This document shows, in pieces, positions 24,699 through 58,400 of a stretch of 64,000 nucleotides of DNA. This DNA comes from Escherichia coli (GTDB lineage Bacteria; Pseudomonadota; Gammaproteobacteria; Enterobacterales; Enterobacteriaceae), in NCBI RefSeq assembly GCF_048403405.1, contig NZ_CP183129.1; one strand, 5' to 3'. How positions within the stretch are numbered: the stretch's first letter is position 1; each line of letters starts with the position of its first letter. The notes under the pieces were generated by a model. It did not search any database and was not told the DNA's origin. It was given only the letters and a program-made list of their open reading frames with translations. The translations under genes and the position numbers were made by a program.

Positions 24699-24971
24699 TT
24701 AATGTATTCTGTTTATTTTCTTACCATTGAACATACTTTTATTGTCAGCTATCGCTGTTCTTCTGTTTGGCTCTCCTGTATCACTGTTGCTAAAATCACG
24801 AATTATGCTGTCAATTAAATCTCGTCGGAAAGCATTTTCCTCAACCGATTTCATTACGAGTAATTGCTTAATAAGAGTCTGTAACGAAAAATTTATCTTC
24901 ATGCGCAGTATATGGAGCACCGCCTGGCCAGTAATTTCATATTTTGTACTTTCATTATCAGATGTTTTCAT
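24699..24971 (-). CDS. ymgA: Two-component connector protein YmgA
   Basis: 90-aa ORF in the ycgZ operon; AT-rich. Confidence 0.7.
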   Translation of the reverse strand: MKTSDNESTKYEITGQAVLHILRMKINFSLQTLIKQLLVMKSVEENAFRRDLIDSIIRDFSNSDTGEPNRRTAIADNKSMFNGKKINRIH

Positions 24972-25013
24972 AACGACTTCATAGCTAACCTGTTAAATAA
25001 TCAGGCTGTTGCA

Positions 25014-25250
25014 TTATTCAAAAAGCAACCCAATTAGTGCATTATAATGTTTCTGTTCCTCTTCCCCTGTCGCTTGTTCCAGTCGGCATAGAAGTTTGGC
25101 ACAAAGCGACTTTCGACTCAGATTACGTCCATCTTTCAAAATCTCAGTCACAATTTCCCCGAGAGTTTCCTGCTGAGTAGGCAAGTTAGCTTTTGCAAAG
25201 TAACGAGTGATTGCTCCCGCAGAATCTAAAGTCACTGAATTTTGATGCAT
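25014..25250 (-). CDS. ycgZ: Two-component connector protein YcgZ
   Basis: 78-aa ORF; divergent from bluF. Confidence 0.7.
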   Translation of the reverse strand: MHQNSVTLDSAGAITRYFAKANLPTQQETLGEIVTEILKDGRNLSRKSLCAKLLCRLEQATGEEEQKHYNALIGLLFE

Positions 25251-25563
25251 GCTACGCCTCTGTTAAAAATGTTAATCAATGTTAAGTGAGGTAACAATAG
25301 CAAACTTGTACGAAATATGTGTACAGAATGATAAATTAATTTTTTGCATTTAGTGCTAATACATATAAAACAACAGGTTATGATAAAAAATATTGCATCA
25401 TTTAAATGACAACCTATACAAAAATTTTCGCCAACTCATCTTCAACTTTTTCCATTTTTTATCAATGTAAAGAAACAGTTATGTTTTGGTATTAAAAGAA
25501 AGACACCGGAAGATATGTCTGTTACCGTCTTACTCTCGCCTCTCCCATTACCCTGGACAGTTA

Positions 25564-26775: not shown

Positions 26776-26979
26776 TTTTCAGCACATTCTTTCACATGAT
26801 TTCAGTAAATCATCGTGAAAATGAATACGTTATGTTTAAATTTAATCCACATTAAAAATAATGTTTCATCCAATTTAGCTGAAATCTTATTTATACTTTG
26901 TACAATTTTAGCGTATATTGTACAAAGTATTATTGGGTCGTGTACAGGCGACGGAGATTTGTGACCGCAAGGAGGAATT

Positions 26980-27711
26980 GTGGCTTATTACAGCATTGGT
27001 GATGTTGCTGAACGTTGCGGGATTAATCCTGTCACTCTCCGGGCCTGGCAACGCCGCTACGGTTTGTTAAAACCACAGCGCAGTGAAGGCGGACACCGAC
27101 TCTTTGATGAAGAAGACATACAACGCATCGAAGAGATCAAGCGTTGGATAAGTAATGGCGTCCCTGTAGGCAAAGTTAAAGCATTACTGGAAACCACCAG
27201 CCAGGATACGGAAGATGACTGGAGCCGCCTGCAAGAAGAGATGATGTCAATTCTTCGTATGGCTAATCCTGCCAAACTACGCGCGAGAATTATTTCACTG
27301 GGTCGAGAGTACCCAGTAGATCAATTGATTAATCATGTTTACCTTCCTGTTCGCCAGCGTCTCGTGCTTGATCACAACACCTCCCGCATTATGAGCAGTA
27401 TGTTTGACGGCGCATTAATTGAATACGCAGCAGCCTCGCTTTTCGAAATGCGCCGTAAGCCCGGTAAAGAAGCCATTCTGATGGCGTGGAATGTTGAAGA
27501 GAGAGCACGATTGTGGCTGGAAGCATGGCGTTTATCATTGTCAGGATGGCACATTTCTGTTCTTGCTGATCCCATTGAATCGCCGCGCCCGGAACTGTTC
27601 CCGACGCAAACATTGATTGTCTGGACAGGCATGGCACCAACGAGAAGGCAAAACGAACTTTTACAACACTGGGGTGAGCAAGGTTATAAAGTCATCTTTC
27701 ATGCCCCCTAA
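26980..27711 (+). CDS. bluR: MerR-family repressor BluR (YcgE)
   Basis: 243-aa [59 protein letters not shown] (MerR HTH). Confidence 0.85.
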
Positions 27712-27931
27712 TTTCACCTTTATCCCGCCCCTTAGACAGAATCTTATAATCTGAACCCACAACAGCGTTTGCACCGGAGCTGGTCCGTTGCAAAATGCTC
27801 ACCGGGAGAATTCAGGTAATCCCCCTTTCACACTTTGTACATATCACAGCCAAAGGACAGACCAGATTGAAGTGGTAAAACCGATCGTGCACACTACGCA
27901 GTCTCACAACTAACAAGAGGTTATTATCCTG

Positions 27932-28336
27932 ATGGATCAGGTTGTTGTTTTTCAAAAGATGTTTGAGCAAGTGAGAAAAGAGCAAAACTTCTCCTGGTTT
28001 TATTCAGAATTAAAACATCACCGTATTGCACATTACATTTATTATCTGGCTACGGATAACATCAGAATTATTACTCACGATGACACGGTTTTGTTATTAA
28101 GAGGAACCAGGAACCTGTTAAAAGTTAGTACGACCAAGAACCCTGCTAAAATAAAAGAGGCCGCATTGCTTCATATTTGCGGAAAATCAACATTTCGGGA
28201 ATACTGTTCAACACTGGCAGGCGCGGGCGTTTTCCGGTGGGTTACTGATGTTAATCATAACAAACGCAGTTACTACGCCATTGATAATACGCTTTTATAT
28301 ATTGAAGATGTAGAAAACAATAAACCATTAATCTAG
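27932..28336 (+). CDS. ycgX: YcgX (DUF1398-family)
   Basis: 134-aa ORF recognised as YcgX; neighbour of bluR and iraM. Confidence 0.7.
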   Translation: MDQVVVFQKMFEQVRKEQNFSWFYSELKHHRIAHYIYYLATDNIRIITHDDTVLLLRGTRNLLKVSTTKNPAKIKEAALLHICGKSTFREYCSTLAGAGVFRWVTDVNHNKRSYYAIDNTLLYIEDVENNKPLI

Positions 28337-29038
28337 CTAAAGTTGGAAGCTTAAGAAATGCTTCATAATTCAGTAAGGCATTAGCATAATGGAAATAAAA
28401 GTGCAGAGACTATCCCTATGGATGATATATACTATCTTTTTATTGCCACCCATAAATAATCACCAGGCCAATACTATCAAATTGATATTTGAAATGTGAT
28501 TACTTGACTTTCTATAAGTTATTTTATAACGGTTAACAAATTTATAAAACCAACGGGCGTGCCATACGCCCGTTTCAATACTTAACGCACATGTGTTTTG
28601 GTTTAGTCATCATCCGGTTATATGTATTTTAGCCAGGAATGGGTTAAACCATTCCTATATAACTAAAAAATTGAAACCTTATTCTCATGTCATGCTTATA
28701 TTCGTCATTATCGTTATATAAAAAGGCCAACCATAATGTTTAGCAAATTGGCACAAAGTAGTATAAAGGCTATGTTTTAATTACAGGATGTTCAGTCATT
28801 TGAATGTATAACATTTTAGCTAAACAAATCTAAAACGAAGTGAATAATTTAATGTTTTCACTAAATCTCATTTTGTTTAATATCTATTGAGATTTCTTGC
28901 TTTAAATTTTGCTTTATATAAACAATGGTTTTAATTTTTGATTAATTTGTTTTTTGGGGAGTAATATACACATATGCAAAGTCAAGAAATGAACATCCAA
29001 ATGAACTATATTAAGCACCGTGGGATAAGACATAACAA

Positions 29039-41756: not shown

Positions 41757-42893
41757 ATGGGACAGAGTAAAAAATTGAATAAACAACCGAGTTCGCTTTC
41801 ACCGCTGGTGCAATTGGCGGGAATTCGCAAATGCTTTGATGGTAAAGAGGTCATTCCCCAGCTGGATCTGACTATCAACAATGGCGAGTTCCTCACGCTG
41901 CTTGGCCCTTCTGGCTGCGGTAAAACAACCGTTCTTCGCCTGATTGCAGGTCTGGAAACTGTTGATTCCGGACGCATCATGCTGGATAACGAGGACATCA
42001 CCCACGTTCCGGCGGAAAACCGCTATGTGAACACTGTTTTCCAAAGCTACGCACTTTTCCCCCACATGACCGTGTTCGAAAATGTGGCCTTTGGGTTACG
42101 CATGCAAAAAACCCCCGCTGCTGAAATTACGCCCCGCGTGATGGAAGCCCTGCGGATGGTGCAGCTGGAAACCTTCGCTCAACGTAAACCGCATCAGCTT
42201 TCTGGTGGTCAACAGCAACGCGTCGCCATTGCTCGCGCGGTGGTTAACAAGCCTCGTCTGTTGTTGCTGGATGAGTCGCTCTCAGCGCTGGATTACAAAC
42301 TGCGCAAACAGATGCAGAACGAGCTGAAAGCGCTACAGCGTAAGCTTGGCATTACATTCGTCTTCGTGACTCACGATCAGGAAGAAGCACTCACCATGTC
42401 GGACAGGATTGTGGTGATGCGCGATGGTCGCATTGAGCAAGACGGCACGCCGCGTGAAATCTACGAAGAGCCGAAAAACCTGTTTGTTGCTGGGTTTATT
42501 GGCGAAATCAATATGTTTAACGCCACTGTCATCGAACGTCTCGACGAGCAGCGCGTACGCGCCAACGTTGAAGGCCGCGAATGTAATATCTACGTTAACT
42601 TCGCCGTTGAACCGGGGCAAAAACTGCATGTTCTGCTGCGCCCGGAAGACTTACGTGTTGAAGAGATTAACGACGACAACCACGCTGAAGGGCTGATTGG
42701 TTACGTTCGCGAGCGTAACTACAAAGGCATGACGCTGGAGTCGGTTGTTGAACTGGAAAATGGCAAGATGGTGATGGTCAGCGAATTCTTCAATGAAGAC
42801 GACCCTGACTTTGACCACTCTCTCGACCAAAAAATGGCCATTAATTGGGTAGAAAGCTGGGAGGTCGTACTGGCTGATGAAGAACACAAGTAA
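41757..42893 (+). CDS. potA: Spermidine/putrescine ABC transporter ATPase PotA
   Basis: 378-aa ORF with Walker [10 protein letters not shown], signature LSGGQQQR, Walker B LLLLDE. Confidence 0.95.
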
Positions 42894-43740
42894 GTTCCAG
42901 AATGTAGTGATTGTCACTATTGTCGGTTGGCTTGTGTTGTTTGTCTTTCTGCCCAACCTGATGATCATTGGCACCAGCTTTTTGACCCGCGACGACGCCA
43001 GTTTCGTCAAAATGGTCTTTACGCTGGATAACTACACGCGTCTGCTCGATCCGCTCTATTTTGAAGTGCTATTGCACTCGCTGAATATGGCGCTGATCGC
43101 CACCCTCGCCTGCCTGGTGCTGGGCTTTCCTTTTGCCTGGTTTCTGGCGAAGTTGCCACACAAGGTGCGTCCGCTGCTGCTGTTTCTGCTGATTGTTCCG
43201 TTCTGGACCAACTCATTGATTCGTATCTACGGGCTGAAAATTTTCCTCAGCACCAAAGGCTATCTCAACGAGTTTTTGCTCTGGCTGGGCGTTATCGATA
43301 CACCAATTCGCATCATGTTCACACCCAGTGCGGTGATTATCGGTCTGGTTTACATTCTGCTGCCGTTTATGGTGATGCCGCTGTACTCCAGTATCGAAAA
43401 ACTGGATAAGCCGTTGCTGGAGGCGGCGCGCGATCTCGGTGCCAGCAAGTTGCAGACCTTTATCCGCATCATTATCCCACTGACGATGCCGGGGATTATT
43501 GCCGGATGCTTGTTGGTGATGCTGCCAGCGATGGGCCTGTTCTATGTGTCCGACCTGATGGGCGGTGCGAAAAACCTGCTGATCGGTAACGTCATCAAAG
43601 TACAGTTCCTCAATATTCGTGACTGGCCGTTTGGTGCAGCCACCAGCATTACGCTGACTATCGTAATGGGCCTGATGTTGCTGGTTTACTGGCGCGCTTC
43701 TCGCTTGCTGAATAAGAAGGTGAGCGAATTAGATGATTAA
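42877..43740 (+). CDS. potB: Spermidine/putrescine ABC transporter permease PotB (3' end abuts prophage DNA)
   Basis: 287-aa ORF, multi-TM permease with EAA-like loop ([23 protein letters not shown]); overlaps potA end; potC does not follow. Confidence 0.9.
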
Positions 43741-43971
43741 TCCTTTATATTCAATGCATTAAGTTTGTTTTTGAGTGGTTTTGCCGTTTAAGGTAACGGC
43801 GTTATAGATCCTATCAAAATCAATCAATTCCATTCTGGTTTTGGAGAAAGATTTTTCGAGAGCTTCGGTCTTTAACTAAAACTGATTGCGTATAATCCCA
43901 ATACCCCTCCCCGACTATCTGAATGGTCGGGGAGGCACTTCAAGCACAAAATATCATCCCTGCGCCGTTGA

Positions 43972-44238
43972 TTACTCTGCAGGTGAAGTCGGCCACTCAA
44001 TATCAGGTGCAGTTGATGTATCAACACGATTCAACAATACCCGATATTTATTCCATGCCTCCAGCAACGATCTTTCTTCCGCCGTTGCGATTTCCAGATC
44101 TACAGCATCCTGCAGTGGCGCAATATACTCACTGAATTCCTGGATGTGGAACTGTGTGGTGACGGTCTTCCAGTCATTCGGCTCCTGCTGTATCGAAGCA
44201 TACCAGGCTATTTCAATATCGCTATGCTGCGGCAGCAT
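43972..44238 (-). CDS. Tail fiber assembly protein fragment (Tfa C-terminal domain homolog, 88 aa)
   Basis: C-terminal 50 aa (...[52 protein letters not shown]) near-identical to the end of the full tfa at 45018-45602. Confidence 0.6.
43991..44134. repeat. Direct repeat copy 1 of tfa 3' end (about 85% identical to 45040-45183)
   Basis: ggccactcaatatcaggtgcagttgatgtatcaacacg... shared by both loci; also upstream shared motif ataatcccaat...gattactc. Confidence 0.85.
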
Positions 44239-44294
44239 TTAACCCCTTGTAATTCATCGCCATAATTGATTTAATTCACAAATAAAACTATAAC

Positions 44295-44963
44295 ATGGTG
44301 AAATCAATGAAAAAAAACACAGATGATGGGGCTAAAATTTACACACCACTTACCCTAAAGCTTTATGACTGGTGGGTTTTGGGAGTATCAAATCGGCTTG
44401 CATGGGGATGTCCTACAAAGGAACACCTTCTTCCACACTTTCTGGAACATGTAGGTAACAACCATCTGGATATTGGTGTTGGAACTGGGTTTTACCTTAC
44501 TCACGTACCTGAGAGTAGTCTGATATCTTTAATGGATTTGAACGAAGCTAGCCTGAACGCGGCATCTACAAGGGCTGGGGAATCAAAAATTAAACATAAA
44601 ATTAGCCATGATGTTTTTGAACCTTATCCCGCGGCGTTACATGGTCAATTTGATTCCATTTCCATGTTTTACCTTCTTCACTGCCTGCCTGGAAATATAT
44701 CTACAAAAAGCTGTGTAATACGCAATGCGGCGCAGGCCTTAACTGACGATGGAACTCTATACGGAGCCACAATTCTTGGCGATGGAGTTGTGCACAATAG
44801 CTTCGGTCAAAAACTGATGCGCATTTACAATCAGAAAGGCATCTTTTCAAACACAAAAGATTCCGAAGAAGGCTTAACACATATACTCTCAGAGCATTTC
44901 GAGAATGTTAAAACCAAGGTTCAAGGTACTGTAGTAATGTTTTCCGCTTCAGGGAAAAAATAG
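44295..44963 (+). CDS. Class I SAM-dependent methyltransferase (prophage moron)
   Basis: 222-aa ORF with Rossmann motif I (HLDIGVGTGFYL) and acidic motif II (LISLMDLNEASL); markedly AT-rich relative to flanks; opposite strand to phage structural genes; alternative start at 44307 (MKKNTDDG). Confidence 0.7.
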   Translation: MVKSMKKNTDDGAKIYTPLTLKLYDWWVLGVSNRLAWGCPTKEHLLPHFLEHVGNNHLDIGVGTGFYLTHVPESSLISLMDLNEASLNAASTRAGESKIKHKISHDVFEPYPAALHGQFDSISMFYLLHCLPGNISTKSCVIRNAAQALTDDGTLYGATILGDGVVHNSFGQKLMRIYNQKGIFSNTKDSEEGLTHILSEHFENVKTKVQGTVVMFSASGKK

Positions 44964-45017
44964 CATCCAACCGCAGCACGTTCTTGCTTAAGACGTGCTG
45001 CGGCATAATCCCAATGA

Positions 45018-45602
45018 TTACTCCCTGACAGGGTTCGTAGGCCACTCAATATCAGGTGCAGTTGATGTATCAACACGGTTCAGCAACACCCGATACTTTT
45101 TCCAGGCTTCCAGCAATGAGGTTTCTTCCTCCGTTGCAATTTCCAGATCTGCAGCATCCTGAAGCGGCGCAATATGCTCACTGGCTACCTGCATCAGGTT
45201 GTTTTTTGTTTCTTCCGCCTCCCGGATCCGGAACAGTTTTTCTGCTTCCGTATCCTTCACCCAGGCTGTGCCGTTCCACTTCTGAAACTCCCCTTCCGGC
45301 GATAACCAGGTAACATTTTCCGGTAACGGACCGAGTTCAGAAATAAATAACTCGTCCCCTGACGCTACGTCATAAACCGTTTTCCCCCGATGGTCTTCAA
45401 CGAGATGCCACGATGCCTCATCACTGTTGAAAACAGCCACAAAGCCAGCAGGAATATCTGGTGGTGCAATATCGGTACTGTTTGCTGGCAGACCTGTATG
45501 AGGCGGAATATATGCGTCACCTTCACCAATAAATTCATTAGTTCCGGCCAGCAGATTATAAATTTTTATGGTCCGTGCTTGTTCACTCATTCTGAATGCC
45601 AT
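45018..45602 (-). CDS. tfa: Tail fiber assembly protein Tfa
   Basis: 194-aa [82 protein letters not shown]... recognised as lambda Tfa-like. Confidence 0.9.
45040..45183. repeat. Direct repeat copy 2 of tfa 3' end
   Basis: See copy 1; the two copies bracket the methyltransferase gene. Confidence 0.85.
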
Positions 45603-48600
45603 TATGCAAGCCTCACAATATAGTTAAATGCGATGTTTTTGACGGTGTTTTCCGCGTTACCCGCAGCGTTAACGGTGATGGTGTGTCCATGTGAACCAAT
45701 CGCAACGGAGTGCGTATGCGCACCAATACCTACAGTATGTGCATGTGCGCCAGAACTTGCTGCAGTACCAGACAGCGAGTGGGTATGAGCACCTGCTGAC
45801 TGTGTCTGAATACGTTGATAATACGATCTATAGGAAGAAGTCTCCGGGCTTACTTGATACTGTGAATTCTGGACATAAGTGAACCCACCGCCATCATAAA
45901 ATGCTAACGCAGAACCGCCGCCTCCTGGCCAACGAATACCATTACCATGAGTATGAACACCGGCAGACCCCGTAGAGCCACTCAGACTGTGCGTATGCGC
46001 CCCGGTGTTATTCGTGGATTTAGTGCCGTAATCAAACGACGATGTGGTTTTCGTCCCCAAATCCGTACTGGATGCGCTGGCGCTGTGGGTGTGCGATTTT
46101 ATGCCGTCCTGTTCCTGAGACAATACGGCCCGGCCACTGGCGGGTTTGCCCTTGATTGTCCAGCCGCGCATATCTGGAATAACACCTGAAGGATAGGCAA
46201 TAGCCAGTTTCGGATATGCTGCCTTATCAAACGTCTGCCCCTGCATGATCGCATAACCTGCAGGTGGTGTATCTGATGGCCACGGCAGCGGAACACCTGG
46301 CGGAAACGCTTCAATATTTGCCGAGCCGTCAAATTTTACGCCGTTAATTGTCCTTGCAGTTTGCAATTTGGTTGCTGTGCTTGCATTACCCGATAAAGAT
46401 CCAGTGATACCACCACTCGCGTTTAATTTAGTTGCAATTGTAACATTGCCAGTATGGTTACTAATTATAAACGGCCTTAAGCTATTGTGCGTACCAAGAC
46501 TGTTACCCGAATCTGTCAACATAAAATATGTGTTTGATCCATCATTTCGGATAAAGAATCCATAGTTGCCATAGGCAATACGCAGACCATTTGCTGACCT
46601 TGAAATAACCTCACCAGCAGCAGTTAAACCACCTGAAAGAGTCCCTCCAGTTAATGCCAATGCCCCAATATTTGAAGGGGTCAATGTGATATTTGCACTA
46701 CCATCAAATGACACACCGTTAATCGTTCTGGCTGCCTGAAGTTTCGTGGCGGTCGCAGCATTACCTGTAGTGTTTTGATTACCGGTAGCGTTGACTCCAG
46801 GCAAGTTGATATCTGCCGATCCATCAAATGCCACGCCCCCAATCTTACGTGCTGTCTTGATCTTGGTCGCAGTATCTGCGTTTCCGGTCAAATTACCAGT
46901 AACACTACCACCAACTTTTAGTCCATTACCGATGGACACCAACCCTGATCTTAAGTTTATAGAGAATGGTCTTAATGAACCGATGTCTCCATTTTCCCCC
47001 TCCCCTTCATTAGTCGGAATAAGATGAAGATGATCTTCGGAACGCCTAAAAATAAGGCCAAAGGCTTGGTTGAATATTCGAAGAGCATTTATCGTGCTGA
47101 TTTTTAACTGCCCTCCCATTGTGTCGCCAGTTTTTTGAACTGAACTATCTTTAACAGTTTTAACTGCCTTTGGCGTTGCCGCCAGCTTTTCACTGGTGCT
47201 GTTTGTTGCACTGCTGAGCTGTACTATCCCCTTTTTCGTCGTGCTCGCATCCTCCAGCGCCACGGCGGATGCAATATCCTCTGCCCGTTTTGCTGCTGTC
47301 TCGGCGCGCGTTGCCGCGGATTCAGCAGCAACTTTGCTCTGAGATGCAGCCGTCGCACTGCCTGCCGCCTCTGATGCTTTCGTTGTTGCTGTCGTGGCAC
47401 TACCTTTCGCTGCTGACGCTTGTCTGGTCGCCTCATCTTTTGAAGCAGACGCAGATGATGCCGATGACGCCGCTGAACTGGCTGACGATGCGGCTGCCGC
47501 CTTAGAGGAAGCAGCATTGTCTGCTGAAGTCTTTGCATTTGTTTCAGAGGTTTTTGCTGCAGAAGCAGACCTCGCTGCTGCAGTGGCTTGCTCAGTGGCT
47601 TTGCCAGCCTTCGTTGTGGCTGTTGAAGCGGATGATGCGGCGCTTTCTGCCGATTTTCCGGCGGCGGTGGCACTGGCTGAGGCCTGCCCGGCACTTGTTG
47701 ACGCGGCACTGGCAGATAATGCAGCCGCTGTTTTTGAACCTGCCGCAGCTGAGGCGCTCTGTCCCGCTGCTGTTTCAGAAGACTTAGCGTTCGTCTCGGA
47801 CGTTTTTGCCGCCTTCGCGGAATTTCCTGCCGCCGTTGCCGAGGAAGCTGCACTACTGGCACTTGATGATGCATTCGTTTCTGAAGATTTCGCTGCCTCT
47901 TTTGAGGCCGCCGCACCCCGTGCCGAGGTGGCAGCTTCTGACGCCTTCATGGTCGCTGTGGATGCAGAAGTGGCTGCCGATTTTTGTGATGCTGCGGCAT
48001 TCGTTTCTGACGTTTTCGCGGCACTGGCGCTGGTAGCTGCCGCGCTTTTTGATGACTCTGCAGCAGCAGCACTTTTTGCTGCTTCACGGGCCTTTGTCGA
48101 TGCCGTTCCTGCGCTGGAAGACGCTGACTGAGCCGACGACGCGGCCTGTCCGGCTGACGTGCTGGCGGCACGTGCTGAGGCTGCAGCATCGGTTGCATGA
48201 GTTGCCGCCTCGCTGGCTGATGCACTGGCATCGCTGGCTGATTTTTTCGCGGCTGCCGTATTCTGTGCAACCGCGGAGGCGTTACGTGACACCTCTTCCA
48301 CCATCTGCTCAAAGCGGCGCAGTGCCTCCGGTCGGACATCATCCTCCGTCATGGCACCGAGAAAATCATTCAGCGTACCTGGTCTGGAACCTTCATAGAC
48401 GGTAATGGTCCCGGCATGTGAAGGCGGAAAACCTTCAACCAGCAGGGTGACGCTGTACTGGCCATGCTCAACATCCATGCTGTAACGTCCGGCTTCATCC
48501 GGATTTTCAGAGGCCACCGTGTTCACCACCACCGTGCTGCTGGTTCGTCTGGCCTTCAGCACAATGGTGCAGTTCTGTACTGGTTTTCCTGTGCCATCTT

Positions 48601-48628
48601 TAAGCACGCCAGAAATTTTTACTGTCAT
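45602..48628 (-). CDS. stf: Side tail fiber protein Stf
   Basis: 1008-aa ORF; lambda-Stf-like N-terminus ([30 protein letters not shown]), long Ala/Ser/Thr-rich low-complexity shaft, C-terminal receptor-binding region. Confidence 0.85.
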
Positions 48629-48640
48629 ACTTTTCCACCA

Positions 48641-48672
48641 ATAAAAAAAGCCCGCAGCAGTGACGCCACGGG
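48641..48672 (-). terminator. Intrinsic terminator downstream of lom
   Basis: On minus strand: agcccgtggcgtcactgctgcgggct hairpin followed by ttttttatt. Confidence 0.5.
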
Positions 48673-48779
48673 CTTCAGGACAGTGTAACTTTACGTTTCC
48701 TCAAACGCAGTTCACCCCATAAGGTGGATGAACCTGCGTATCATAACAATATTTACAGAAGATAAATCGGCGTCTGTTG

Positions 48780-49379
48780 TCAGAAACGGTATCCGATACC
48801 AACAATAAATGCATCCGTTCGCCAGTCGCCACTACCGGAACCTTCATAAGCAAGGTCAATGGTTACGGATTCGGTCGGGTTAAACTGCACGCCAGCCCCC
48901 CACGCCAGAGACGTGTTGCTGTGGCGACCGTCATCACTTCCGGTCAGCACATCGTGCGTTTTCCCCTTGTTGTCAGTTACGCGGAGATAATCCCCGGAGA
49001 AAGTCGACACACGGCTGTAAGCCACACCCACCATCGCATACGCGCTGAACCATTCATTCACGCGTACAGACGGCCCCGCCATCACGCTGAACCAGCGGTT
49101 ACGCACGGAATCTTCATGCCAGCGGGTATCGCTGTAGTGCGTTTTTTGCTCATCCTCAGCATTGGCATAACTGAAGGACGTAATCAGCCCCAGCGCGTCC
49201 GTAAACTCATAACGGTATTTCACGTTAATCCCGTTCAGATTATCGCTGCCGGGAGCGTTCGTACGGGCATGAAGATACCCCGCGCTCAGTGTGGACTGAT
49301 GTTCAGACGCCCATGCAGGCGCACCGGATACGGACAGACAGATGGCTGCGGACAAAATGGCTGCACAAACTTTACGCAT
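48780..49379 (-). CDS. lom: Lom-family outer-membrane beta-barrel protein
   Basis: 199-aa ORF with signal peptide MRKVCAAILSAAICLSVSGAPAWA and C-terminal ...IGYRF; Ail/Lom family. Confidence 0.85.
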   Translation of the reverse strand: MRKVCAAILSAAICLSVSGAPAWASEHQSTLSAGYLHARTNAPGSDNLNGINVKYRYEFTDALGLITSFSYANAEDEQKTHYSDTRWHEDSVRNRWFSVMAGPSVRVNEWFSAYAMVGVAYSRVSTFSGDYLRVTDNKGKTHDVLTGSDDGRHSNTSLAWGAGVQFNPTESVTIDLAYEGSGSGDWRTDAFIVGIGYRF

Positions 49380-49446
49380 AATTACCTCTCGCTTTTCTGC
49401 AATAAAAAAGGCGCCATTTCTGGCGCCCGTATATGGGTTATAAAAT

Positions 49447-52400
49447 TCAGCTGATACTGATGCCTGCGGTGGCTTTCTTCATCACCACAACCAGCAAATC
49501 GCTGATACTTGCTGTGGGATACCAGTTATTCACCAGCCATGCTGACACCGAAAACTCCAGCGTCATGTGGCCGCGACCAGCTGGCATATCAATAACACCA
49601 CTGTAAATCAGCGTATTATCCAGCGCGGTACGGTTATAAATTTCAGCACCGTTTTTCCGTACTATCAGGCGGCATGACGAATAAGTATCGCTGTTCTCCC
49701 GCTCATGTCTGGCACCGCTGAAAGCCACCGCCGGAATAACAATCTGCCGGTTAAACGGCTGATCGTCATAAACCCTGACGGTAATGGTTCCTGATGGCCA
49801 ACGCTCCGGTGCACGGGAGTCACGGGGGAAAGCCTTACCCACTGTTTTAACGAGATCGCCTTCAATCTGGTTTGCAGACAGTTTCCCTCTGATGACACAG
49901 TTCTCGTTAATGGTGACATTATTGAGCGTGCCGGTATTCGCCGTGATGGCTCCACTGATATCCGCATTGCGGGCTGTCAGCCTGCCATCCGGCGTCAGGG
50001 AAAACGTAGGAGGATTGCCGGATGACGTGATGCTCACCGCAAACAGTCGCTTCAGGAACACGTCGTTCATGAACAGCTGATTCCCCTGCGCCACAAACAG
50101 CGGCGTGGTGTTGCCATTCTCCGGGGTAATCATCGCGATACGGTCCGCCTGCAGCAGAATACTGCTCAGCGTCTGACCATCAACATCCTCAATCCCCGCA
50201 CCAATCCCGGCCACATAGGGAATACCGTTTTTTGTTTTCTGCACCTTCAGCATATACATGGCATTCAGCTCATTGCGCGTGTCTGACTGAACCCGCTGGA
50301 TTTGCTGTATGGTCACGGCCTGGTCACCCAGCTTTTTATCCGTGGTCGAGGTAATTTCACTCCCTTTTTTATCCACGTACTGGCGGACCTGTGCTATCTG
50401 TCGGGCGTTTTCTGACTGCCCCTGGCTGACAGTCTGTGAGATTTCACTGCTCACCCGGTCCACTTTCTGGCTCACCTGCGCGATGGCCAGTGTCTGGTCC
50501 TCATTCTTTTTCGCAACCAGCTGCGTGAGGCTGTTTTCCGCCTTCCCGATTTTCCGGGTCACTTCTGCGATATCCGTGTCCATCCGCTGACGGATGTCTT
50601 CTTCCAGTTGCGTGACCTCCGTACGCAGCGCTGAAGCATCAATGCGCTCTTTCAGTGCCTGGCCCAGAAGCGTCTCATCTATCAGCCCCCGGAAAATTTC
50701 CAGATACCCTTCACCATCATTGCTGGGCTGCCCGCTGGCTTCCACAAAAGCAGATTTTCCCACCAGGTTGACGCTTCGCACGTAAAACCAGAAATCCGTC
50801 CCCGGCTTAATCCGGCTCCCCTGGACAGTCCACTGACTGCCGGTCCCCAGATAACGGGCAGATTTTTCCACCTGTGCCGTGTTCGTGATGCGTTTTTCTG
50901 AGAACCAGAATTCAAACTGTACCGTCGGGTCATACACCGCAAGACGCGGGACCGCCGTTATCTGAAAATACCCCGGCGTCAGCTCAATGGTGGCGGGTTT
51001 TGCAGGCGCGTTAATCCGGAAGGTGGTGGTCGCAGGTTCGCCCTGCTGGCCGTAGCTGTTAATGGCCCGCACCGTCAGGGTGTATTCCCCCAGTGGCAGG
51101 CCGCTGAAACGGTGCTCCGTGTCTGCGGTGATGGCGGTGGTCACCAGTCTGGCATCCGTTCCCTTACCACTGGTCAGGCGCAGACTGAAGCGCACACCCT
51201 TCACCACCCGCGGCGTGTCCCATTTCGCCTGCGCCAGATACTGGCCGTCAGCTGCGCTCACCTCCACCGTCAGGTGCTGCACTGCCGGTGGGATGACGCT
51301 GTTCAGGGAACCTGACTGCGGCTCAAAGCGGGCACCGTTATCCACGATGGCTTCTTTTTCCGGTACGTGCTGCACCGCCGTGATGGCAAAGGTGCCGTCC
51401 GTGTTTTCCCGGACGGAGACACAGCGGAACAGGCGACGGCGCAGTGACGGCAGGGAGAGTCCCCACACCCCGTATGTCTCCACACCATCAGGCAGGGTAC
51501 TGACCTGTATCCGGTCCGGCGCGGGGTGTTCGGTGATGTCCACACTCACTGGCTTACCGCTGCCGTTAATCAGGTTCACCGTGGCGGCACCGGTCTCCGG
51601 AAGTGTCACTTCACGGTCCAGCGTCAGGGTGCGGGTGGCAGCATCAATGGACAGGACACGTCCGCCGGTCAGGGTCCCGGCATAGTCGTTATCACAGATT
51701 TCAATGATGTCACCGGGTGTGTGCCGCAGCCCCTGAGACCCGAGCGTGAAATCCACCGTCTGCGTTTCCAGCAGTTCGGTCTTTATCACCCACAGTCCGG
51801 CACGGTGGGCCTGACCGCGGCTGGTACAGCCGAACGCGTCCATCTTCAGCAGGTTGCGTCCGTAGCGCAGTATGGCTTCCGGGTCTTCCACCAGTTCCGT
51901 GGAGGTCTGCCAGCCGTTCTGCGGGTCGGTGTAATTCACCTCCACCGCCGTGTGCCGGTCCTTCAGGGCACTGAAGCTGTAGCGGAATCCCACGCCGTTA
52001 TCATCCACCACCACATCGCTGTTGGTGTACGGCCACACCACATCCGACGGGCGGTCCTGAACGAACGTCAGCGTCTGACCGTTCCATACCGGCATACAGC
52101 GCATCGCAGAGCAGAAATCACTGAGAACGTCCCACGCCTTACGCTGTTGTGCCAGGTACGCATTAAAGGTCATCCGCGGCTCGGTCCCCCCGAAACCATC
52201 CGGGACCGTCTGGTCGCAGTACTGCCCGATGGCATACAGCGCCCACTTGTCCACATCCGCCGCCCCCAGACGTTTTCCCATGCCGTAGCGCGGGTGAGTC
52301 AGCATGTCCCACAGGCACCAGGCCGGGTTGTTGCTGTATGCCGGTTTCAGACTGCCGTCCCAGATACCACTGTACGTGCGTTTTTCCGGGTCATAGTTTG

Positions 52401-53139
52401 ACGGCACCTGGATGATACGACCGCGGATATGGTAGTTCACCGTCATCTGCTGGCCGCCGAACTGCTCCGCATCCACCTGCAGCCCCACAATGGCCGTGTT
52501 CGGGTAGCACTGTTTCACATCGATGATTTCGGTGTATGACGACCACAGCGTCTTATTCTGCAGCTGGTCCGTGGTGCTGTCCGCCGTCTCCCTGACCATC
52601 CGGATGTTAAAGGGCCGGGGAGGCAGATTATCCAGAATCACCGAGGCCAGGAACTGTGAGGTGGTCTTGCCGTTAATGGTGACGTCCTTTTCTGTCACCC
52701 AGTTACCGTTACGCTGTAACTGAATCAGCAGGCGGACGGTTGCCGGGTTACGGTCACCCTTTGAGGTGGTCTCCACCAGTGACTGCACCCCGAAGGTAAC
52801 CCGCAGGCGGTCAATGTTCGCGGACGTAATGGTGCGCGTCACCGGTTTTGCCTTCGTCACTTCCACGCCCAGTCCGGTTTCAGCTCCGGAGGACTCAAAG
52901 CCTTCCGGTGGTGTCTGCTCCTGCTCCCCGGCACGCCAGACCGCGGTCACACCGTGTATCACGGGATTACCGTCCGTGTCCGTCAGCGGGGTTTTGTTCA
53001 CCAGAATACTCTGCAGTCCCTTCACCGGACCTTCTATCGGTCCCTCACCAATCGCATCAATCACACTCATCATCTGCGTGGATTTGAGATTATCCTTCGC
53101 CTCACGAGGCGTGTGTGCCTTACCGCCACCTTTTCCCAT
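49447..53139 (-). CDS. J: Tail tip host-specificity protein J
   Basis: 1230-aa [55 protein letters not shown]..., lambda J-like. Confidence 0.9.
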
Positions 53140-53241
53140 ACAGCCTTCCCCTGAATAAATTAACCGCCACTTGCCATTCCGTACAGAAGTCGGATATCCT
53201 TCGCCCGAAAAGCATGAAACACATTTCTGCCATGCTAAAGA

Positions 53242-53276
53242 GAAACCCCGGTATCAGCAGATACCGGGGTTTTCTT
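53242..53276 (+). terminator. Strong hairpin plus U-tract in the I–J gap
   Basis: aaaccccggtatc agca gataccggggttt (10-13 bp perfect stem) followed by tctttc. Confidence 0.45.
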
Positions 53277-53344
53277 TCATGCCCACCGATAATCCTGTTG
53301 GTTAAAACCGGTAATGGCATAAAAATTCTGAATATCTTCACATT

Positions 53345-53477
53345 TTCACACACTGACTGTGGCGCGTATAATTTCTCTGCGTTAATTTTTTTGTCGTGAT
53401 ATAAGAATAATTCCTTACACTTAATCTTCGTAACTCTCCCGCAGTTCCTGTCCGCGATCACTGCGGGATTTTTTTAT
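53345..53477 (+). ncRNA. Candidate small RNA unit in I–J intergenic insertion (promoter 53345-53372, terminator 53438-53477), antisense to tail operon
   Basis: TTCACA-16 nt-TATAAT with AT-rich upstream; no ATG-initiated ORF downstream; cccgcag...ctgcggg hairpin followed by atttttttatt about 65-100 nt after predicted start. Confidence 0.3.
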
Positions 53478-53482
53478 TCTTT

Positions 53483-54163
53483 TTACCCCTGCCGCCCGAT
53501 AACCACGACCTTTCCGCCCCCGCCTTCATCACGGGTGCTGATGTCCTGGGATATACGGCGGGAGCCAACCAGCATTTCCCCGTAAGGCACCGGCATCGGG
53601 TTCCCCTGGGCAATCATGTTATCCAGCGAGGAAAAGTACGTGTTCTGTCTGCCGTTATCCGTTGCGCGGTAATCCGGTGTTTTTGCCTTCGGGGCCAGCA
53701 TCTGGGCCACTCCGCCCAGTATCATGCTGGCACCCAGTGAAAACAGCATCGTGGTGGCAGAAAAACCACCGGCACTCAGGGCTGTACCCCATAACGCCAT
53801 CGAGCCTCCGGCCGTGAAGAAAGAGCCCACGATGGCTGCCGCCCCCAGCACAATCTGCAGTCCACCCTTTCCGGCCCCGGCCAGTCGCGGCACAATGTGG
53901 ATGACCGTTCCCTCACCCAGCTGTTCGTGAAGACGGGCGTACACCGCCTCCGGTGCCGTGTCATCACCGGCAATACGTATCTGGTACCAGCCTTCGTTCA
54001 TCTGACGGCGAAAGCCCGGCATCTGCATCGACAGGGCGCGAATGGCTTCCGCTGCCGTGTTCACATACAGGCTGAGGCGGCGGCCAAATCGTTGTAAATC
54101 CCCGTGAAGGCAGATGCGTGCCAGTGGCGGTGACGCCAGACAGAATGCGTTCGTCGTTGCCAT
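53483..54163 (-). CDS. I: Tail assembly protein I
   Basis: 226-aa ORF, lambda I-like, overlaps K. Confidence 0.8.
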   Translation of the reverse strand: MATTNAFCLASPPLARICLHGDLQRFGRRLSLYVNTAAEAIRALSMQMPGFRRQMNEGWYQIRIAGDDTAPEAVYARLHEQLGEGTVIHIVPRLAGAGKGGLQIVLGAAAIVGSFFTAGGSMALWGTALSAGGFSATTMLFSLGASMILGGVAQMLAPKAKTPDYRATDNGRQNTYFSSLDNMIAQGNPMPVPYGEMLVGSRRISQDISTRDEGGGGKVVVIGRQG

Positions 54164-54806
54164 TTTTCGGAATACCTCTCCCGTTTACTCAGTTGTTCAG
54201 GCAGATGGTGAAGCAGCTCACCGTTACCGCAGTAAATGGCGGCATGGTTCGGTACCGAAGCACCAAAGCAGCACAGCAGAATATCGCCCGCCTGTGCAGA
54301 GGACAGGGGCACCCGGTAAAAGCCGGTGACCGCCATATTGTCCAGGTAAAGGTTCTGGCCGTTGCGCCACCAGTCATCCTCGCGATGAAAATCCGGCATT
54401 TCAGTCCCCGCCAGATGATAAGCATCCCGGAACAGCGTGTAACAGTCCGTCACCCCGTGCTCAAAGCGCCGTCCCGTCAGATGTGGCACACAGCGGAATT
54501 TGTGAATGTCACCCCGGCAGACCAGCCACCAGGGCAGTGCGCTTTTTATCTGCAGCCGCCGGTCAGCCTCGCTCAGCCAGGGCAGCCCACCGGGATGACT
54601 GTGGACCAGTGCCACAATCTCCCCCTGCATCTCTGCCCGCAGCCAGTCTTCCGGTGCGATACGAAAATACGCCTCCGGCTCCGCGGAAATATTCACACAA
54701 GGGATATACCACTCCCCCTCCGGCGTGCTTATCACGAAGCCGCACGACTCCGCAGGCGCACACCGCCGGGCATGTGCCAGAATCGCTGATTCAGTCTGTG
54801 TCATAA
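54061..54806 (-). CDS. K: Tail assembly protein K (NlpC/P60–JAB-like)
   Basis: From MTQTESAILAHARRCAPAESCGFVISTPEGEWYIPCVNISAEPEAYF... with HSHP motif; ORF in track extends upstream to 55065. Confidence 0.8.
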
Positions 54807-55842: not shown

Positions 55843-58400
55843 CGCCCGCTCCCCGATAACAGACCGCCATCACGCAACTGCAGCCGGAGCTCATCCTGCG
55901 CACCTTTACGGGCCATCTCATACACCGCTTTCATCAGCTGCGGCCCGGCCTGTCCGTTGATACCGTCGTTCTGAATCACCACGTGATTGTTCTGATTAAA
56001 ATTAATGCCTTCGGCCCGCCGCATCTGCGCCGGACTTCCGGCAGCACCCACATACCCCCCTTCCGCATAGCCCCGCATCAGGCGGTACAGGTTCCCGACA
56101 CCAATCCGGCTGGTTGCCTCCTTCGTGAAGACAAACTCCCCGCGGTGGACAATCCCCGCTGGCTCATATTTGCCGCCGGTTCCCGTAAATCCTCCGGTCG
56201 CAAAATGGAATTTCGCCGCAGCTGCCTGAATGGCTGTACCGCCTGACGCGGATGCGCCACCACCAACAGCCCCGCCAATAGCGCTGCCGATACTCCCGAC
56301 AATCCCCACCATTGCCTGCTTAAGCAGAATTTCTGTCATCATGGACAGCACGGAGCGGGTGAAGCTGCGCCAGTTCTGCTCACTGCCGGTCAGCATCGCC
56401 GCCATATTCTGTGCAATACCATCAAAGGTCTGCGTGGCAGCACTTTTTACCTGCGACATACTGTCCGTGGCACTCTCTTCCCACTCACTCCAGCCGGACC
56501 TGAGGCCTGCCATCCAGTTCCCGCGAAGCAGGTCTTCAGCCGCCCAGGTCTTTTTCTGCTCTGACATGACGTTATTCAGCGCCAGCGGATTATCGCCATA
56601 CTGTTCCTTCAGGCGCTGTTCCGTGGCTTCCCGTTCTGCCTGCCGGTCAGTCAGCCCCCGGCTTTTCGCATCAATGGCGGCCCGTTTTGCCCGTTGCTGC
56701 TGTGCGAATTTATCCGCCTGCTGCGCCAGCGCGTTCAGGCGCTCCTGATACGTAACCTTGTCGCCAAGTGCAGCCAGCTGGCGTTTGTACTCCAGCGTCT
56801 CATCTTTATGCGCCAGCAGGGATTTCTCCTGTGCAGACAGCTGGCGACGTTGCGCCGCCTCCTCCAGTACCGCGAACTGACTCTCCGCCTTCCACAAATC
56901 CCGGCGCTGCTGGCTGATTTTCTCATTCGCTCCGGCATGCTTCTCCAGCGTCCGGAGTTCTGCCTGAAGCGTCAGCAGGGCAGCATGAGCACTGTCTTCC
57001 TGACGATCGCCCGCAGACACCTTCACGCCGGACTGTTTCGGCTTTTTCAGCGTCGCTTCATAATCCTTTTTCGCCGCCGCCATCAGCGTGTTGTAATCCG
57101 CCTGCAGGATTTTCCCGTCTTTCAGTGCCTTGTTCAGTTCTTCCTGACGGGCGGTATATTTCTCCAGCGGCGTCTGCAGCCGTTCGTAAGCCTTCTGCGC
57201 CTCTTCGGTATATTTCAGCCGTGACGCTTCGGTATCGCTCTGCTGCTGCGCATTTTTGTCCTGTTGAGTCTGCTGCTCAGCCTTCTTTCGGGCGGCTTCA
57301 AGCGCAAGACGGGCCTTTTCACGATCATCCCAGTAACGCGCCCGCGCTTCATCGTTAACAAAATAATCATCCTTGCGCAGATTCCAGATGTCGTCTGCTT
57401 TCTTAAACGCAGCCTCTGCCTTAATCAGCATCTCCTGCGCGGTATCAGGACGACCAATATCCAGCACCGCATCCCACATGGATTTGAATGCCCGCGCTGT
57501 CCTGTCTGCCCAGGTCTCCAGCGTGCCCATGTTCTCTTTCAGGCGGCGGGTCTGGTCATCAAACCCTTTCGTTGCGGCCTCGTTCGCCGCCTGCAATGCC
57601 CCGGTTTCATCGCCGGAACGCTGCAACTGAGCAACATACGCAATCTGCTCCGCCGTCACGTTATGGAACTGCTTCGCCATCGCAATCAGCCCCGACGTCG
57701 GGTCAGTGGTCAGTTTTCCGAAAGCCTCTGCAACCTTGTCCACCTCCACACCGGATGCAGAAGCAAAACGCGCGACACTCTGGTTGATGGCATCAAACTG
57801 TTCACCACCACGCACACCGGCATTCACCATGGCTGCCAGTGACTCACTCGCCTGGTTAAACGTCAGCCCTGCGGCCTGTCCGGCTCTGGAGAGCGTCAGC
57901 ATGCGATCGGCAGTCAGTCCGGACTGATTACCGGAAAGAACCAGGGTTTTATTAAACGCTGAAAGCGTGGAATCTCCCTGGTACCAGGCGTACACCAGCG
58001 CACCTGTCGCCACCGCCAGCGAGGTGACCCCGACCATCGGCAGGGTGATCGCACCGGCAAGCCCCCTGAACATGGGGATCATCCCGCCGAAGGAGTCCTT
58101 CACCTGACCGCCCTGTTGCAGCAGGATCAGCCAGGGATTCTGACCACCGGCAAGCTGCGTGGCGATATCCGTAAACTGTGCGGGCAGGGTTCGCATGGCC
58201 GCTTTATACTGCCCGACGGAAATCCCTGCTTTTTGTGCAGCCAGCGCCTGGTGGCTCAGCCCCTGCTCAACGACAGTTGCGGTTTTTCTGGCGTCAGTAT
58301 CCAGACCTGAAAAATGACGCCTTACCCGGCTCATCTGCTCATCGAAACGGACCGCATCCAGACTCAGGTCAATAACAAGATCACCAACCGGCTGGGACAT
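55839..58400 (-). CDS. H: Tail tape-measure protein H
   Basis: 853-aa ORF, near-identical over long stretches to lambda H as I recall it (MSQPVGDLVIDLSLDAVRFDEQMSRVRRHFSG...). Confidence 0.9.
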   Translation of the reverse strand: MSQPVGDLVIDLSLDAVRFDEQMSRVRRHFSGLDTDARKTATVVEQGLSHQALAAQKAGISVGQYKAAMRTLPAQFTDIATQLAGGQNPWLILLQQGGQVKDSFGGMIPMFRGLAGAITLPMVGVTSLAVATGALVYAWYQGDSTLSAFNKTLVLSGNQSGLTADRMLTLSRAGQAAGLTFNQASESLAAMVNAGVRGGEQFDAINQSVARFASASGVEVDKVAEAFGKLTTDPTSGLIAMAKQFHNVTAEQIAYVAQLQRSGDETGALQAANEAATKGFDDQTRRLKENMGTLETWADRTARAFKSMWDAVLDIGRPDTAQEMLIKAEAAFKKADDIWNLRKDDYFVNDEARARYWDDREKARLALEAARKKAEQQTQQDKNAQQQSDTEASRLKYTEEAQKAYERLQTPLEKYTARQEELNKALKDGKILQADYNTLMAAAKKDYEATLKKPKQSGVKVSAGDRQEDSAHAALLTLQAELRTLEKHAGANEKISQQRRDLWKAESQFAVLEEAAQRRQLSAQEKSLLAHKDETLEYKRQLAALGDKVTYQERLNALAQQADKFAQQQRAKRAAIDAKSRGLTDRQAEREATEQRLKEQYGDNPLALNNVMSEQKKTWAAEDLLRGNWMAGLRSGWSEWEESATDSMSQVKSAATQTFDGIAQNMAAMLTGSEQNWRSFTRSVLSMMTEILLKQAMVGIVGSIGSAIGGAVGGGASASGGTAIQAAAAKFHFATGGFTGTGGKYEPAGIVHRGEFVFTKEATSRIGVGNLYRLMRGYAEGGYVGAAGSPAQMRRAEGINFNQNNHVVIQNDGINGQAGPQLMKAVYEMARKGAQDELRLQLRDGGLLSGSGR

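What the first reader, a model, noticed from the sequence alone, without database searches (positions are those of the whole stretch)
45602..53139. Host-range module diverges from lambda while the tail core is near-identical
H, V, G, T, U, Z and Tfa read as very close to lambda proteins, but J (1230 aa) and Stf (1008 aa) are longer than I recall for lambda (about 1132 and 774 aa). This implies a different receptor specificity grafted onto a lambda-like tail, which is typical mosaicism but useful for predicting host range or receptor.
Basis: partly seen in the sequence, partly recalled or inferred. Interest (0 to 1): 0.3.

Follow-up and report, generated by a model that had tools for sequence, protein, structure and literature searches.

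The report
Common prophage tail-fibre variants, lambda-like
This is the ordinary host-recognition module (J tip fibre, Lom, side fibre Stf, chaperone Tfa) of a lambda-like E. coli prophage; it is longer than lambda's because the fibre shafts carry extra repeats and a swapped middle piece, and its tip most likely binds the porin OmpC instead of LamB.

Summary
The four ORFs exist exactly as described, all on the minus strand: J 1230 aa, Lom 199 aa, Stf 1008 aa, Tfa 194 aa. The contrast of a "near-identical tail core" with a divergent host-range module is overstated. Only H (92% aa) and Tfa (94%) are close to lambda. V, U, T, G and Z are 59-80% identical, and most of J (72%) is no more diverged than they are.

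The extra length is not a new C-terminal domain:
- **J** is collinear with lambda J except for one 101-aa insertion of about 29-aa repeats in the alpha-helical shaft. Its receptor-binding domain belongs to the same family as lambda's but is only 45% identical.
- **That domain** is about 90% identical to the "1A2" gpJ graft, which was shown experimentally to use OmpC. The same class occurs in 62% of complete E. coli genomes and in many long-tailed Stx phages.
- **Stf** gains 105 aa (15 heptads) of coiled coil. A T4 gp34/gp37-like shaft module replaces lambda's hinge and distal region. It keeps a gp37-like tip with a divergent head.

The whole module is 99.8% identical to annotated prophages in RefSeq. 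It is typical lambdoid mosaicism, already known, and of low interest.

The parts
49447..53139 (-). J, the tail-tip / central fibre protein, 1230 aa
   Evidence: The ORF is and its translation. It has the Pfam domains FNIII-A_GpJ, Phage-tail_3, Ig_J, Ig_J_second, Phage_Tail_Tip and Ig_GpJ_C. It aligns collinearly to lambda J, PDB 8iyk.
50326..50628 (-). 101-aa insertion (J residues 838-938) in the alpha-helical shaft, made of about 29-aa tandem repeats
   Evidence: This is the only large gap against lambda J and lies after lambda residue 839. A self-similarity shift of 29 scores 47, against a maximum of 37 in shuffles. Copy number varies among homologues, and three shaft length classes of 63, 91 and 164 aa occur in IMG/VR loci. 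AF2 predicts helix for J 813-958, at low confidence.
49450..49842 (-). J C-terminal receptor-binding domain (residues 1100-1230, Pfam Ig_GpJ_C)
   Evidence: Pfam E-value is 1.3e-37. The last 160 aa are 45% identical to lambda, 64% to A8 gpJ (PDB 9wca) and about 90% to gpJ 1A2. They are 96% identical to phage PhiR49_2 and about 94% to many long-tailed Stx phages. The class is present in 3349 of 5426 E. coli genomes.
49433..49582 (-). About 150-bp recombination patch at the 3' end of J
   Evidence: Of the 17 differences from the closest genome across 8122 nt, 15 cluster here. They give the changes W1202L, G1205N and T1228S.
48780..49379 (-). Lom-like Ail/Lom outer-membrane protein, a moron flanked by terminator-like hairpins
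   Evidence: Pfam Ail_Lom E-value is 5.8e-126. It is 42% identical to lambda Lom. Terminator-like sites lie at 49428-49409 and 48676-48647 on the minus strand.
45602..48628 (-). Stf, the side tail fibre, 1008 aa
   Evidence: The ORF is and its translation.
48227..48628 (-). Stf N-terminal tail-attachment domain (residues 1-134)
   Evidence: Pfam phage_tail_N E-value is 5.6e-70. The PDB 9e7m Ur-lambda Stf N-terminus matches at E 3.6e-47.
47138..48226 (-). Stf Ala/Ser-rich proximal coiled coil (residues 135-497), including a 105-aa (15-heptad) insertion at residues 304-408 (window 47405-47719)
   Evidence: The alignment gap is. All ten top self-similarity shifts are multiples of 7.
46304..47137 (-). 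Stf middle shaft module (residues 498-775), which replaces lambda's hinge and distal coiled coil (lambda residues 396-530)
   Evidence: It does not align with Ur-lambda. Pfam Gp34_trimer matches residues 620-722. PDB T4 gp34 (4uxe, 5nxh) and Mu S (5yvq) match. Blocks of 60-70 aa are 50-60% identical to T-even gp34/gp37.
45605..46303 (-). Stf gp37-like tip (residues 776-1008): collar, needle with seven HxH motifs, and a divergent head at about residues 890-950 (window about 45779-45961)
   Evidence: PDB 2xgf (T4 gp37 tip) matches at E 1e-79 to 9e-82. The collar is about 88% identical to lambda and the last 29 aa are identical. Exact tip sequence is rare in phage isolates but, together with the middle module, is present in 423 of 5426 E. 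coli genomes.
45018..45602 (-). Tfa, the tail-fibre assembly chaperone, 194 aa
   Evidence: It is 94% identical to lambda Tfa over its full length. Pfam Caudo_TAP E-value is 1.9e-44.

Best explanation
This is the intact host-recognition module of a lambda-like prophage that sits next to potB in an E. coli chromosome. It works like Ur-lambda's. Trimeric Stf side fibres, folded with the help of Tfa, make the first reversible contact. The J central fibre then binds a porin irreversibly and triggers opening of the tail tip.

Three differences from lambda are shown by sequence:
1. The J alpha-helical shaft carries 101 extra residues of about 29-aa repeats. If fully helical, this makes the central fibre roughly 15 nm longer (inferred).
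2. The J receptor-binding domain belongs to the '1A2 / Stx-phage' class rather than the LamB-binding lambda class. The inferred essential receptor is therefore OmpC, probably with a preference for some OmpC alleles.
3. Stf has 15 extra heptads of coiled coil, a T-even-like shaft module in place of lambda's hinge and distal coil, and a gp37-type iron-needle tip whose head (the receptor-contact region in T4) is different. Its specificity is inferred to differ from lambda's, but its receptor is unknown.

The module arose by ordinary recombination among lambdoid prophages at module boundaries, and by gain and loss of repeats.
For: - **Anatomy and collinearity:**
- **Position of the J insertion:** it lies in the AHS as defined for lambda gpJ (PMC11101478).
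- **Repeat nature and copy-number variation:**
- **RBD class:** about 90% identity to gpJ 1A2 over 155 readable positions, 64% to A8 and 45% to lambda.
- **Receptor of 1A2 and A8:** both grafts start at lambda residue 964. Both deliver DNA into a lamB ompC double-deletion strain only when OmpC is supplied. 1A2 works with the EDL933 OmpC allele but not the K-12 allele (PMC11338833; preprint).
- **Viable phages carry the same class:** PhiR49_2 has a 1232-aa J with a 96% identical RBD, and many Stx phages are about 94% identical.
- **Stf domains:** they correspond to the Ur-lambda Stf architecture of StfN 1-91, proximal coil 102-393, hinge, distal coil and RBD (PMC12617516).
- **Natural breakpoints:** breaks at lambda Stf about 395 and about 530 fall within a few residues of the engineering fusion points R393 and S528.
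- **Stf detail:** heptad periodicity and HxH counts are, and the T4 gp37 tip match is.
- **Prevalence and annotation:** the module is 99.8% identical to annotated RefSeq prophages, and 565 genomes cover at least 80% of it.
Against: - **No functional test:** the receptor assignment rests on about 90% identity to a graft whose sequence I could read only from a machine-read PDF with indels. The roughly 10% difference, including the patch at residues 1186-1229, could change OmpC allele preference or even the receptor.
- **Weak structure model:** the AF2 model of J 782-1230 is poor (mean pLDDT 48, monomer), so the helical and length inference is weak.
- **Stf receptor unaddressed:** nothing here identifies it.
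- **Inducibility unshown:** only part of the prophage lies in the window, so it is not shown that the prophage can be induced.
Confidence: 0.75

Rival explanations
1. J still uses LamB as lambda does, and the divergence of its receptor-binding domain is neutral drift.
For: The domain family is the same as lambda's (Ig_GpJ_C), and the fibre is collinear with lambda J.
Against: The last 160 aa are only 45% identical to lambda but about 90% identical to 1A2, which works in a lamB deletion strain and needs OmpC. The RBD has no DNA-level similarity to lambda.
Confidence: 0.05
2. J uses a different outer-membrane protein, neither LamB nor OmpC (for example OmpF, FhuA or BamA), because its differences from 1A2 fall in receptor-contact loops.
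For: About 10% of RBD residues differ from 1A2. A recombination patch changes residues 1202, 1205 and 1228 relative to the nearest genomes. Within this family A8 and 1A2 already differ in OmpC allele range.
Against: The patch makes the window more like 1A2, restoring the 'WLVNNW' motif. A8, at only 64% identity, still uses OmpC.
Confidence: 0.15
3. The module is a decaying remnant of a defective prophage and has no current function.
For: A tfa fragment and an inserted methyltransferase lie downstream. Only part of the prophage is visible in the window.
Against: All tail ORFs from Z to Tfa are intact and full length. The closest genome shows a complete lysis, head and tail gene set. Near-identical J RBDs occur in plaque-forming isolates.
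Confidence: 0.1

Closest known systems
Phage lambda gpJ (P03749; PDB 8iyk, 8xcj, 8xck)
   Same: It has the same six-domain architecture, the same gene position and a collinear alignment. Identity is about 72% over residues 1-837 and 64-78% in the beta-prism region.
   Different: The window's J has a 101-aa repeat insertion in the alpha-helical shaft. Its RBD is only 45% identical, and its predicted receptor is OmpC, not LamB.
gpJ '1A2' and 'A8' OmpC-binding variants (Brodel et al. 2024, PMC11338833; PDB 9wca for A8); natural J of PhiR49_2 and of long-tailed Stx1a/Stx2a phages
   Same: The RBD is about 90% identical to 1A2, 96% to PhiR49_2, about 94% to Stx phages and 64% to A8. PhiR49_2 J is 1232 aa and has the same shaft insertion.
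   Different: A few substitutions differ (for example [10 protein letters not shown] against AKHEKEHTDI, and GRGH against GHGH). The engineered chimeras keep lambda's short shaft. No functional data exist for this allele.
Ur-lambda Stf (774 aa) with Tfa
   Same: The StfN attachment domain, heptad coiled coil, collar and HxH needle tip are shared. The C-terminal 29 aa are identical and Tfa is 94% identical.
   Different: The window's Stf has 15 extra heptads. Lambda's hinge and distal coil are replaced by a 278-aa gp34/gp37-like module. It has 7 HxH motifs rather than 8, and the head region is divergent.
T4 gp37 tip (PDB 2xgf) and T4 gp34 C-terminal shaft (4uxe, 5nxh)
   Same: The tip aligns at E 1e-80 with seven HxH motifs. 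The shaft blocks are 50-60% identical.
   Different: The window's fibre is a siphovirus side fibre with a lambda-type N-terminus. Its head insert is about 20 residues longer than in T4.
Rac prophage StfR/TfaR of E. coli K-12
   Same: It has the same protein family annotation, and the 3' third of stf plus tfa matches at 88% nt identity.
   Different: Only 34% of the distal 1.5 kb is shared, so the middle module differs.

Membership tests
Lambda gpJ tip attachment protein family | Full set of gpJ domains (FNIII-A_GpJ, Phage-tail_3, Ig_J, Ig_J_second, Phage_Tail_Tip, Ig_GpJ_C) | tested here: met
   All six domains score above the Pfam cut-offs.
Lambda gpJ tip attachment protein family | Collinear end-to-end alignment with lambda J and position after I, before lom and stf | tested here: met
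   Searches show a single 101-aa insertion only.
Lambda gpJ tip attachment protein family | LamB as receptor | not testable with these tools
   The RBD is 45% identical to lambda, so sequence argues against it.
OmpC-using gpJ RBD class (1A2 type) | High identity to the grafted 1A2 segment (from lambda residue 964 onward) | tested here: met
   139 of 155 readable positions are identical, from a frameshift-tolerant alignment to machine-read DNA. P0024 and IMG/VR loci show the same class.
OmpC-using gpJ RBD class (1A2 type) | OmpC-dependent, LamB-independent adsorption or delivery | not testable with these tools
   This has been shown only for the 1A2 and A8 chimeras.
Lambda Stf / T4 gp37-type tail fibre | StfN tail-attachment domain | tested here: met
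   Pfam PF08400 E-value is 5.6e-70, and PDB 9e7m matches at E 3.6e-47.
Lambda Stf / T4 gp37-type tail fibre | Heptad coiled-coil shaft | tested here: met
   All top self-similarity shifts are multiples of 7, with scores of 95-107 against a shuffle maximum of 92.
Lambda Stf / T4 gp37-type tail fibre | gp37-like tip with collar domain and HxH iron-binding motifs | tested here: met
   PDB 2xgf matches at E 1e-79. Seven HxH motifs lie at residues 846-980.
Lambda Stf / T4 gp37-type tail fibre | Cognate Tfa chaperone gene immediately downstream | tested here: met
   Tfa is 94% identical to lambda Tfa, and its start shares base 45602 with the end of the stf stop codon.
Lambda Stf / T4 gp37-type tail fibre | OmpC (or LPS) binding by the tip head | not testable with these tools
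   The head region differs from both lambda and T4.

The most novel reading that the evidence does not exclude
The number of about 29-aa repeats in the J alpha-helical shaft is a selected length or trigger-tuning polymorphism. The shaft measures 63, 91, 164 or more residues between conserved motifs. In lambda this segment refolds when the receptor binds. Variation here could set how far the central fibre reaches through O-antigen or capsule, or how receptor binding is transmitted to tail opening, independently of which RBD is attached.
Probability: 0.2. Interest if true: 0.4.

Novelty: already known. Interest (0 to 1): 0.15.

Why it matters
The practical value is modest. The analysis gives an evidence-based receptor prediction (OmpC, not LamB) for a very common class of E. 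coli prophage tail tips. It also shows that natural recombination breakpoints in J and Stf lie close to the fusion points already used to retarget lambda particles. This can help host-range prediction for prophages and Stx phages. It does not reveal a new kind of system.

Tried and rejected
- **Co-lengthening of the two fibres.** J gains 101 aa and Stf gains 105 aa of helix, which suggested a link. This was rejected. In 32 IMG/VR loci with both measures, Spearman rho is 0.03 (p 0.89), and the same 1008-aa Stf pairs with J shafts of 91 and 164 aa.
- **Papers on the PhiR and mEp332 phages.** I searched for receptor data on them and found nothing.
- **Exact DNA words from the window's J in the Nature supplement.** There was no hit, because the 1A2 graft as printed there shares no exact stretches with the window's DNA and the PDF text has reading errors. 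I read the sequence directly instead and aligned it with a frameshift-tolerant method.
- **AF2 of J 782-1230 as a monomer with an 8-sequence alignment.** Confidence was low (pLDDT 48). I used it only for secondary structure and ran no fold search.
- **Rfam on 43500-54500.** The only hits were IS009 matches inside tfa and its fragment, which are coding sequence, and sub-threshold isrG hits in the stf repeats. None is meaningful.
- **AgvB, EcOnc and Pas sRNAs as the identity of the I-J intergenic element.** Their described locations are near the lysis and Q regions, not between I and J.
- **DNA tandem repeats.** Tandem Repeats Finder found none matching the J or Stf insertions. The repeats are visible only at protein level.
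Full report
**Observation**

The region holds four intact minus-strand ORFs with exactly the stated boundaries:
- Tfa, 45018-45602, 194 aa
- Stf, 45602-48628, 1008 aa
- a Lom-like protein, 48780-49379, 199 aa
- J, 49447-53139, 1230 aa

Lambda J is 1132 aa. Restoring one C in the GCCC run of lambda PaPa joins orf-401 and orf-314 into a 774-aa Ur-lambda Stf.

The second half of the observation does not hold. Against lambda, H is 92% and Tfa 94% identical. K is 87%, U 80%, M 80%, V 79%, L 78%, T 72%, G 68%, I 66% and Z 59%. At DNA level the tail genes run at 72-81% identity. The only near-identical stretches are about 1.4 kb inside H (window about 57750-56250, 94-100%) and tfa (92.5%). This is a lambda relative with two recent recombination patches, not a lambda tail carrying a foreign host-range module.

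**Context**

The 8.1-kb module is 99.8% identical to annotated prophages in RefSeq E. coli chromosomes, for example strain 7/2. There it follows a complete lysis, terminase, head and tail gene set and abuts potB. The window is collinear with that genome over 39 kb at 99.4% identity. At least 80% of the module is covered in 565 of 5426 complete genomes.

**J protein**

A global alignment to lambda J shows one large gap only. Residues 838-938 of the window protein (101 aa) have no counterpart and are inserted after lambda residue 839. Three single-residue gaps in the window protein make the net difference 98 aa. All six gpJ Pfam domains are present, and the protein matches the lambda J structures end to end.

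In the published lambda gpJ architecture (hub domains, FNIII-1/2, alpha-helical shaft, beta-prism, RBD), residues 841-861 belong to the alpha-helical shaft, which refolds on LamB binding (PMC11101478). The insertion therefore lies in that shaft. Several lines describe it:
- **Repeat structure.** It is built of about 29-aa repeats. A self-similarity shift of 29 scores 47, against a maximum of 37 in 200 shuffles.
- **Variable copy number.** Among E. coli homologues, one protein has one more copy, another has two more, and lambda lacks the insertion altogether.
- **Length classes.** In IMG/VR loci recovered through the Stf N-terminus, the shaft falls into classes of 63, 91 and 164 residues, giving J proteins of about 1132, 1158 and 1230 aa.
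- **Secondary structure.** A monomer AF2 model is poor (mean pLDDT 48) but predicts J 813-958 as almost continuous helix. A central fibre about 15 nm longer than lambda's is an inference from this.

**Receptor-binding domain of J**

Identity to lambda falls to 33-44% over the last 130 aa. The best solved-structure match for the C-terminus is not lambda but "A8 gpJ 713" (PDB 9wca).

A8 and 1A2 are natural E. coli gpJ C-termini grafted onto lambda J at residue 964 by Brodel et al. Both deliver DNA into a lamB ompC double-deletion strain only when OmpC is supplied. 1A2 works with the EDL933 OmpC allele but not the K-12 allele (PMC11338833; confirmed in the STEC preprint).

I read the 1A2 DNA from the supplement, which is a machine-read PDF with indels, and aligned it with a frameshift-tolerant method. 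The window's last 160 aa match 139 of 155 readable positions (about 90%). The same segment is 64% identical to A8 and 45% to lambda.

The same RBD class is widespread:
- It is 96% identical in the plaque-forming phage PhiR49_2, whose J is 1232 aa.
- It is about 94% identical in many long-tailed Stx1a and Stx2a phages.
- It is present in 3349 of 5426 complete E. coli genomes, with a median of two copies per genome.

OmpC is therefore the best-supported receptor. This rests on homology and was not tested here.

One fine detail concerns the differences from the closest genome. Of 17 differences across the 8.1 kb, 15 lie in a 150-bp patch at the 3' end of J (window 49433-49582). They change residues 1202, 1205 and 1228. 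At 1202 and 1205 they restore the "WLVNNW" motif seen in 1A2. This looks like a small gene-conversion event inside the RBD.

**Stf protein**

Compared with Ur-lambda Stf, and using the domain limits published for Ur-lambda (PMC12617516), the protein divides as follows:

| Window Stf residues | Relation to Ur-lambda Stf |
|---|---|
| 1-303 | About 82% identical; StfN domain plus start of the proximal coiled coil |
| 304-408 | A 105-aa insertion in the Ala/Ser-rich coil, exactly 15 heptads |
| 409-497 | About 80% identical |
| 498-775 | Replaces lambda residues 396-530 (hinge and distal coil) with an unrelated 278-aa module |
| 776-about 890 | Collar and first needle strands, about 88% identical |
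| about 890-950 | Head region, the putative receptor-contact site in T4 gp37; diverges from both lambda and T4 and is about 20 residues longer than in T4 |
| last 29 aa | Identical to lambda |

Further details support this reading:
- **Coiled coil.** All ten best self-similarity shifts of the coil are multiples of 7.
- **Middle module.** It matches Pfam Gp34_trimer, the T4 gp34 and Mu S structures, and blocks of T-even gp34 and gp37.
- **Tip.** It matches the T4 gp37 tip structure at E about 1e-80 and has seven HxH motifs like T4, whereas lambda has eight.
- **Breakpoints.** The breaks at lambda residues of about 395 and about 530 fall within a few residues of the R393 and S528 fusion points chosen empirically for Stf engineering.
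- **Prevalence.** The distal half of this Stf occurs in 423 of 5426 genomes, but its exact tip sequence is rare among sequenced phage isolates.

The receptor of this Stf cannot be named from these data.

**Modularity**

Across the IMG/VR loci, four features reassort freely: J shaft length class, J RBD class (1A2-like, A8-like and others), Stf coil length (classes of 242, 354 and 466 residues, differing by 112 aa or 16 heptads) and Stf distal type. J shaft length and Stf coil length do not correlate (rho 0.03, p 0.89, n 32). I therefore drop the idea that the two fibres lengthened together.

**Verdict**

This is an ordinary, already annotated and very common lambdoid host-recognition module.
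- The premise of a near-identical core is wrong.
- The implied mechanism of novel grafted C-terminal domains is wrong. The extra length comes from shaft repeats and a swapped shaft module, and specificity changes lie within homologous receptor-binding domains.

The only mildly new point is the 29-aa repeat polymorphism of the J shaft, whose significance is unknown.

Noticed in passing
window 53140-53482 (between I and J): The I-J gap is 343 bp here, against 60 bp in lambda and PhiR49_2, and it is AT-rich. On the plus strand (antisense to the tail genes) a near-consensus promoter, TTCACA-16-TATAAT at 53345-53372, is followed by a hairpin and T-run at 53451-53476. This would give a transcript of about 95 nt that contains a UCCUU motif.

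The promoter and terminator are invariant in seven variants from other loci, while the body has two sequence forms. A core of about 165 bp is also present in many Stx phages at 92-97% identity. There is no Rfam match, and it does not correspond to the AgvB, EcOnc or Pas sRNAs as described. It is a candidate sRNA moron.
   Followed up: partly
window 53195-53300 (minus strand): A very stable hairpin (CCCCGGTATC...GATACCGGGG followed by a T-rich run) lies in the second half of the I-J insert. Its folding energy is -38.6 kcal/mol, z-score -4.5. It looks like a bidirectional intrinsic terminator inside the late tail operon. This half of the insert is missing in some related loci.
   Followed up: partly
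window about 56250-57750 (inside H): A patch of about 1.4 kb in the tape-measure gene is 94-100% identical to lambda at DNA level, while its flanks are 68-84% identical. This points to a recent recombination exchange with a true lambda-type phage.
   Followed up: no
window 43991-44963: Between tfa and potB lie two features. One is a class I SAM-dependent methyltransferase gene on the opposite strand (44295-44963). The other is a second, N-terminally truncated tfa copy in the same orientation (43991-44145, 87% identical to lambda tfa). The Rfam 'IS009' hits at 45061-45259 and 44012-44215 are simply these tfa coding sequences.
   Followed up: partly
window 42877-43740 and prophage end: The prophage abuts potB, with potA and potB on the chromosomal side and no potC on this side. 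This suggests integration at the potB/potC junction.
   Followed up: no
IMG/VR loci L004-L083: The Stf proximal coiled-coil length (N-terminus to the GIVQLSSAT motif) falls into classes of 242/246, 354, 458/466 and 510 residues. The main steps are 112 residues (16 heptads), which matches the strongest internal self-similarity shift of 112 in the window's Stf.
   Followed up: partly
window 24001-29000: A low-GC stretch (32-41% GC, except one 1-kb bin at 47.5%, against about 50% in the flanks) lies in the chromosomal part of the window. It may be a horizontally acquired island.
   Followed up: no
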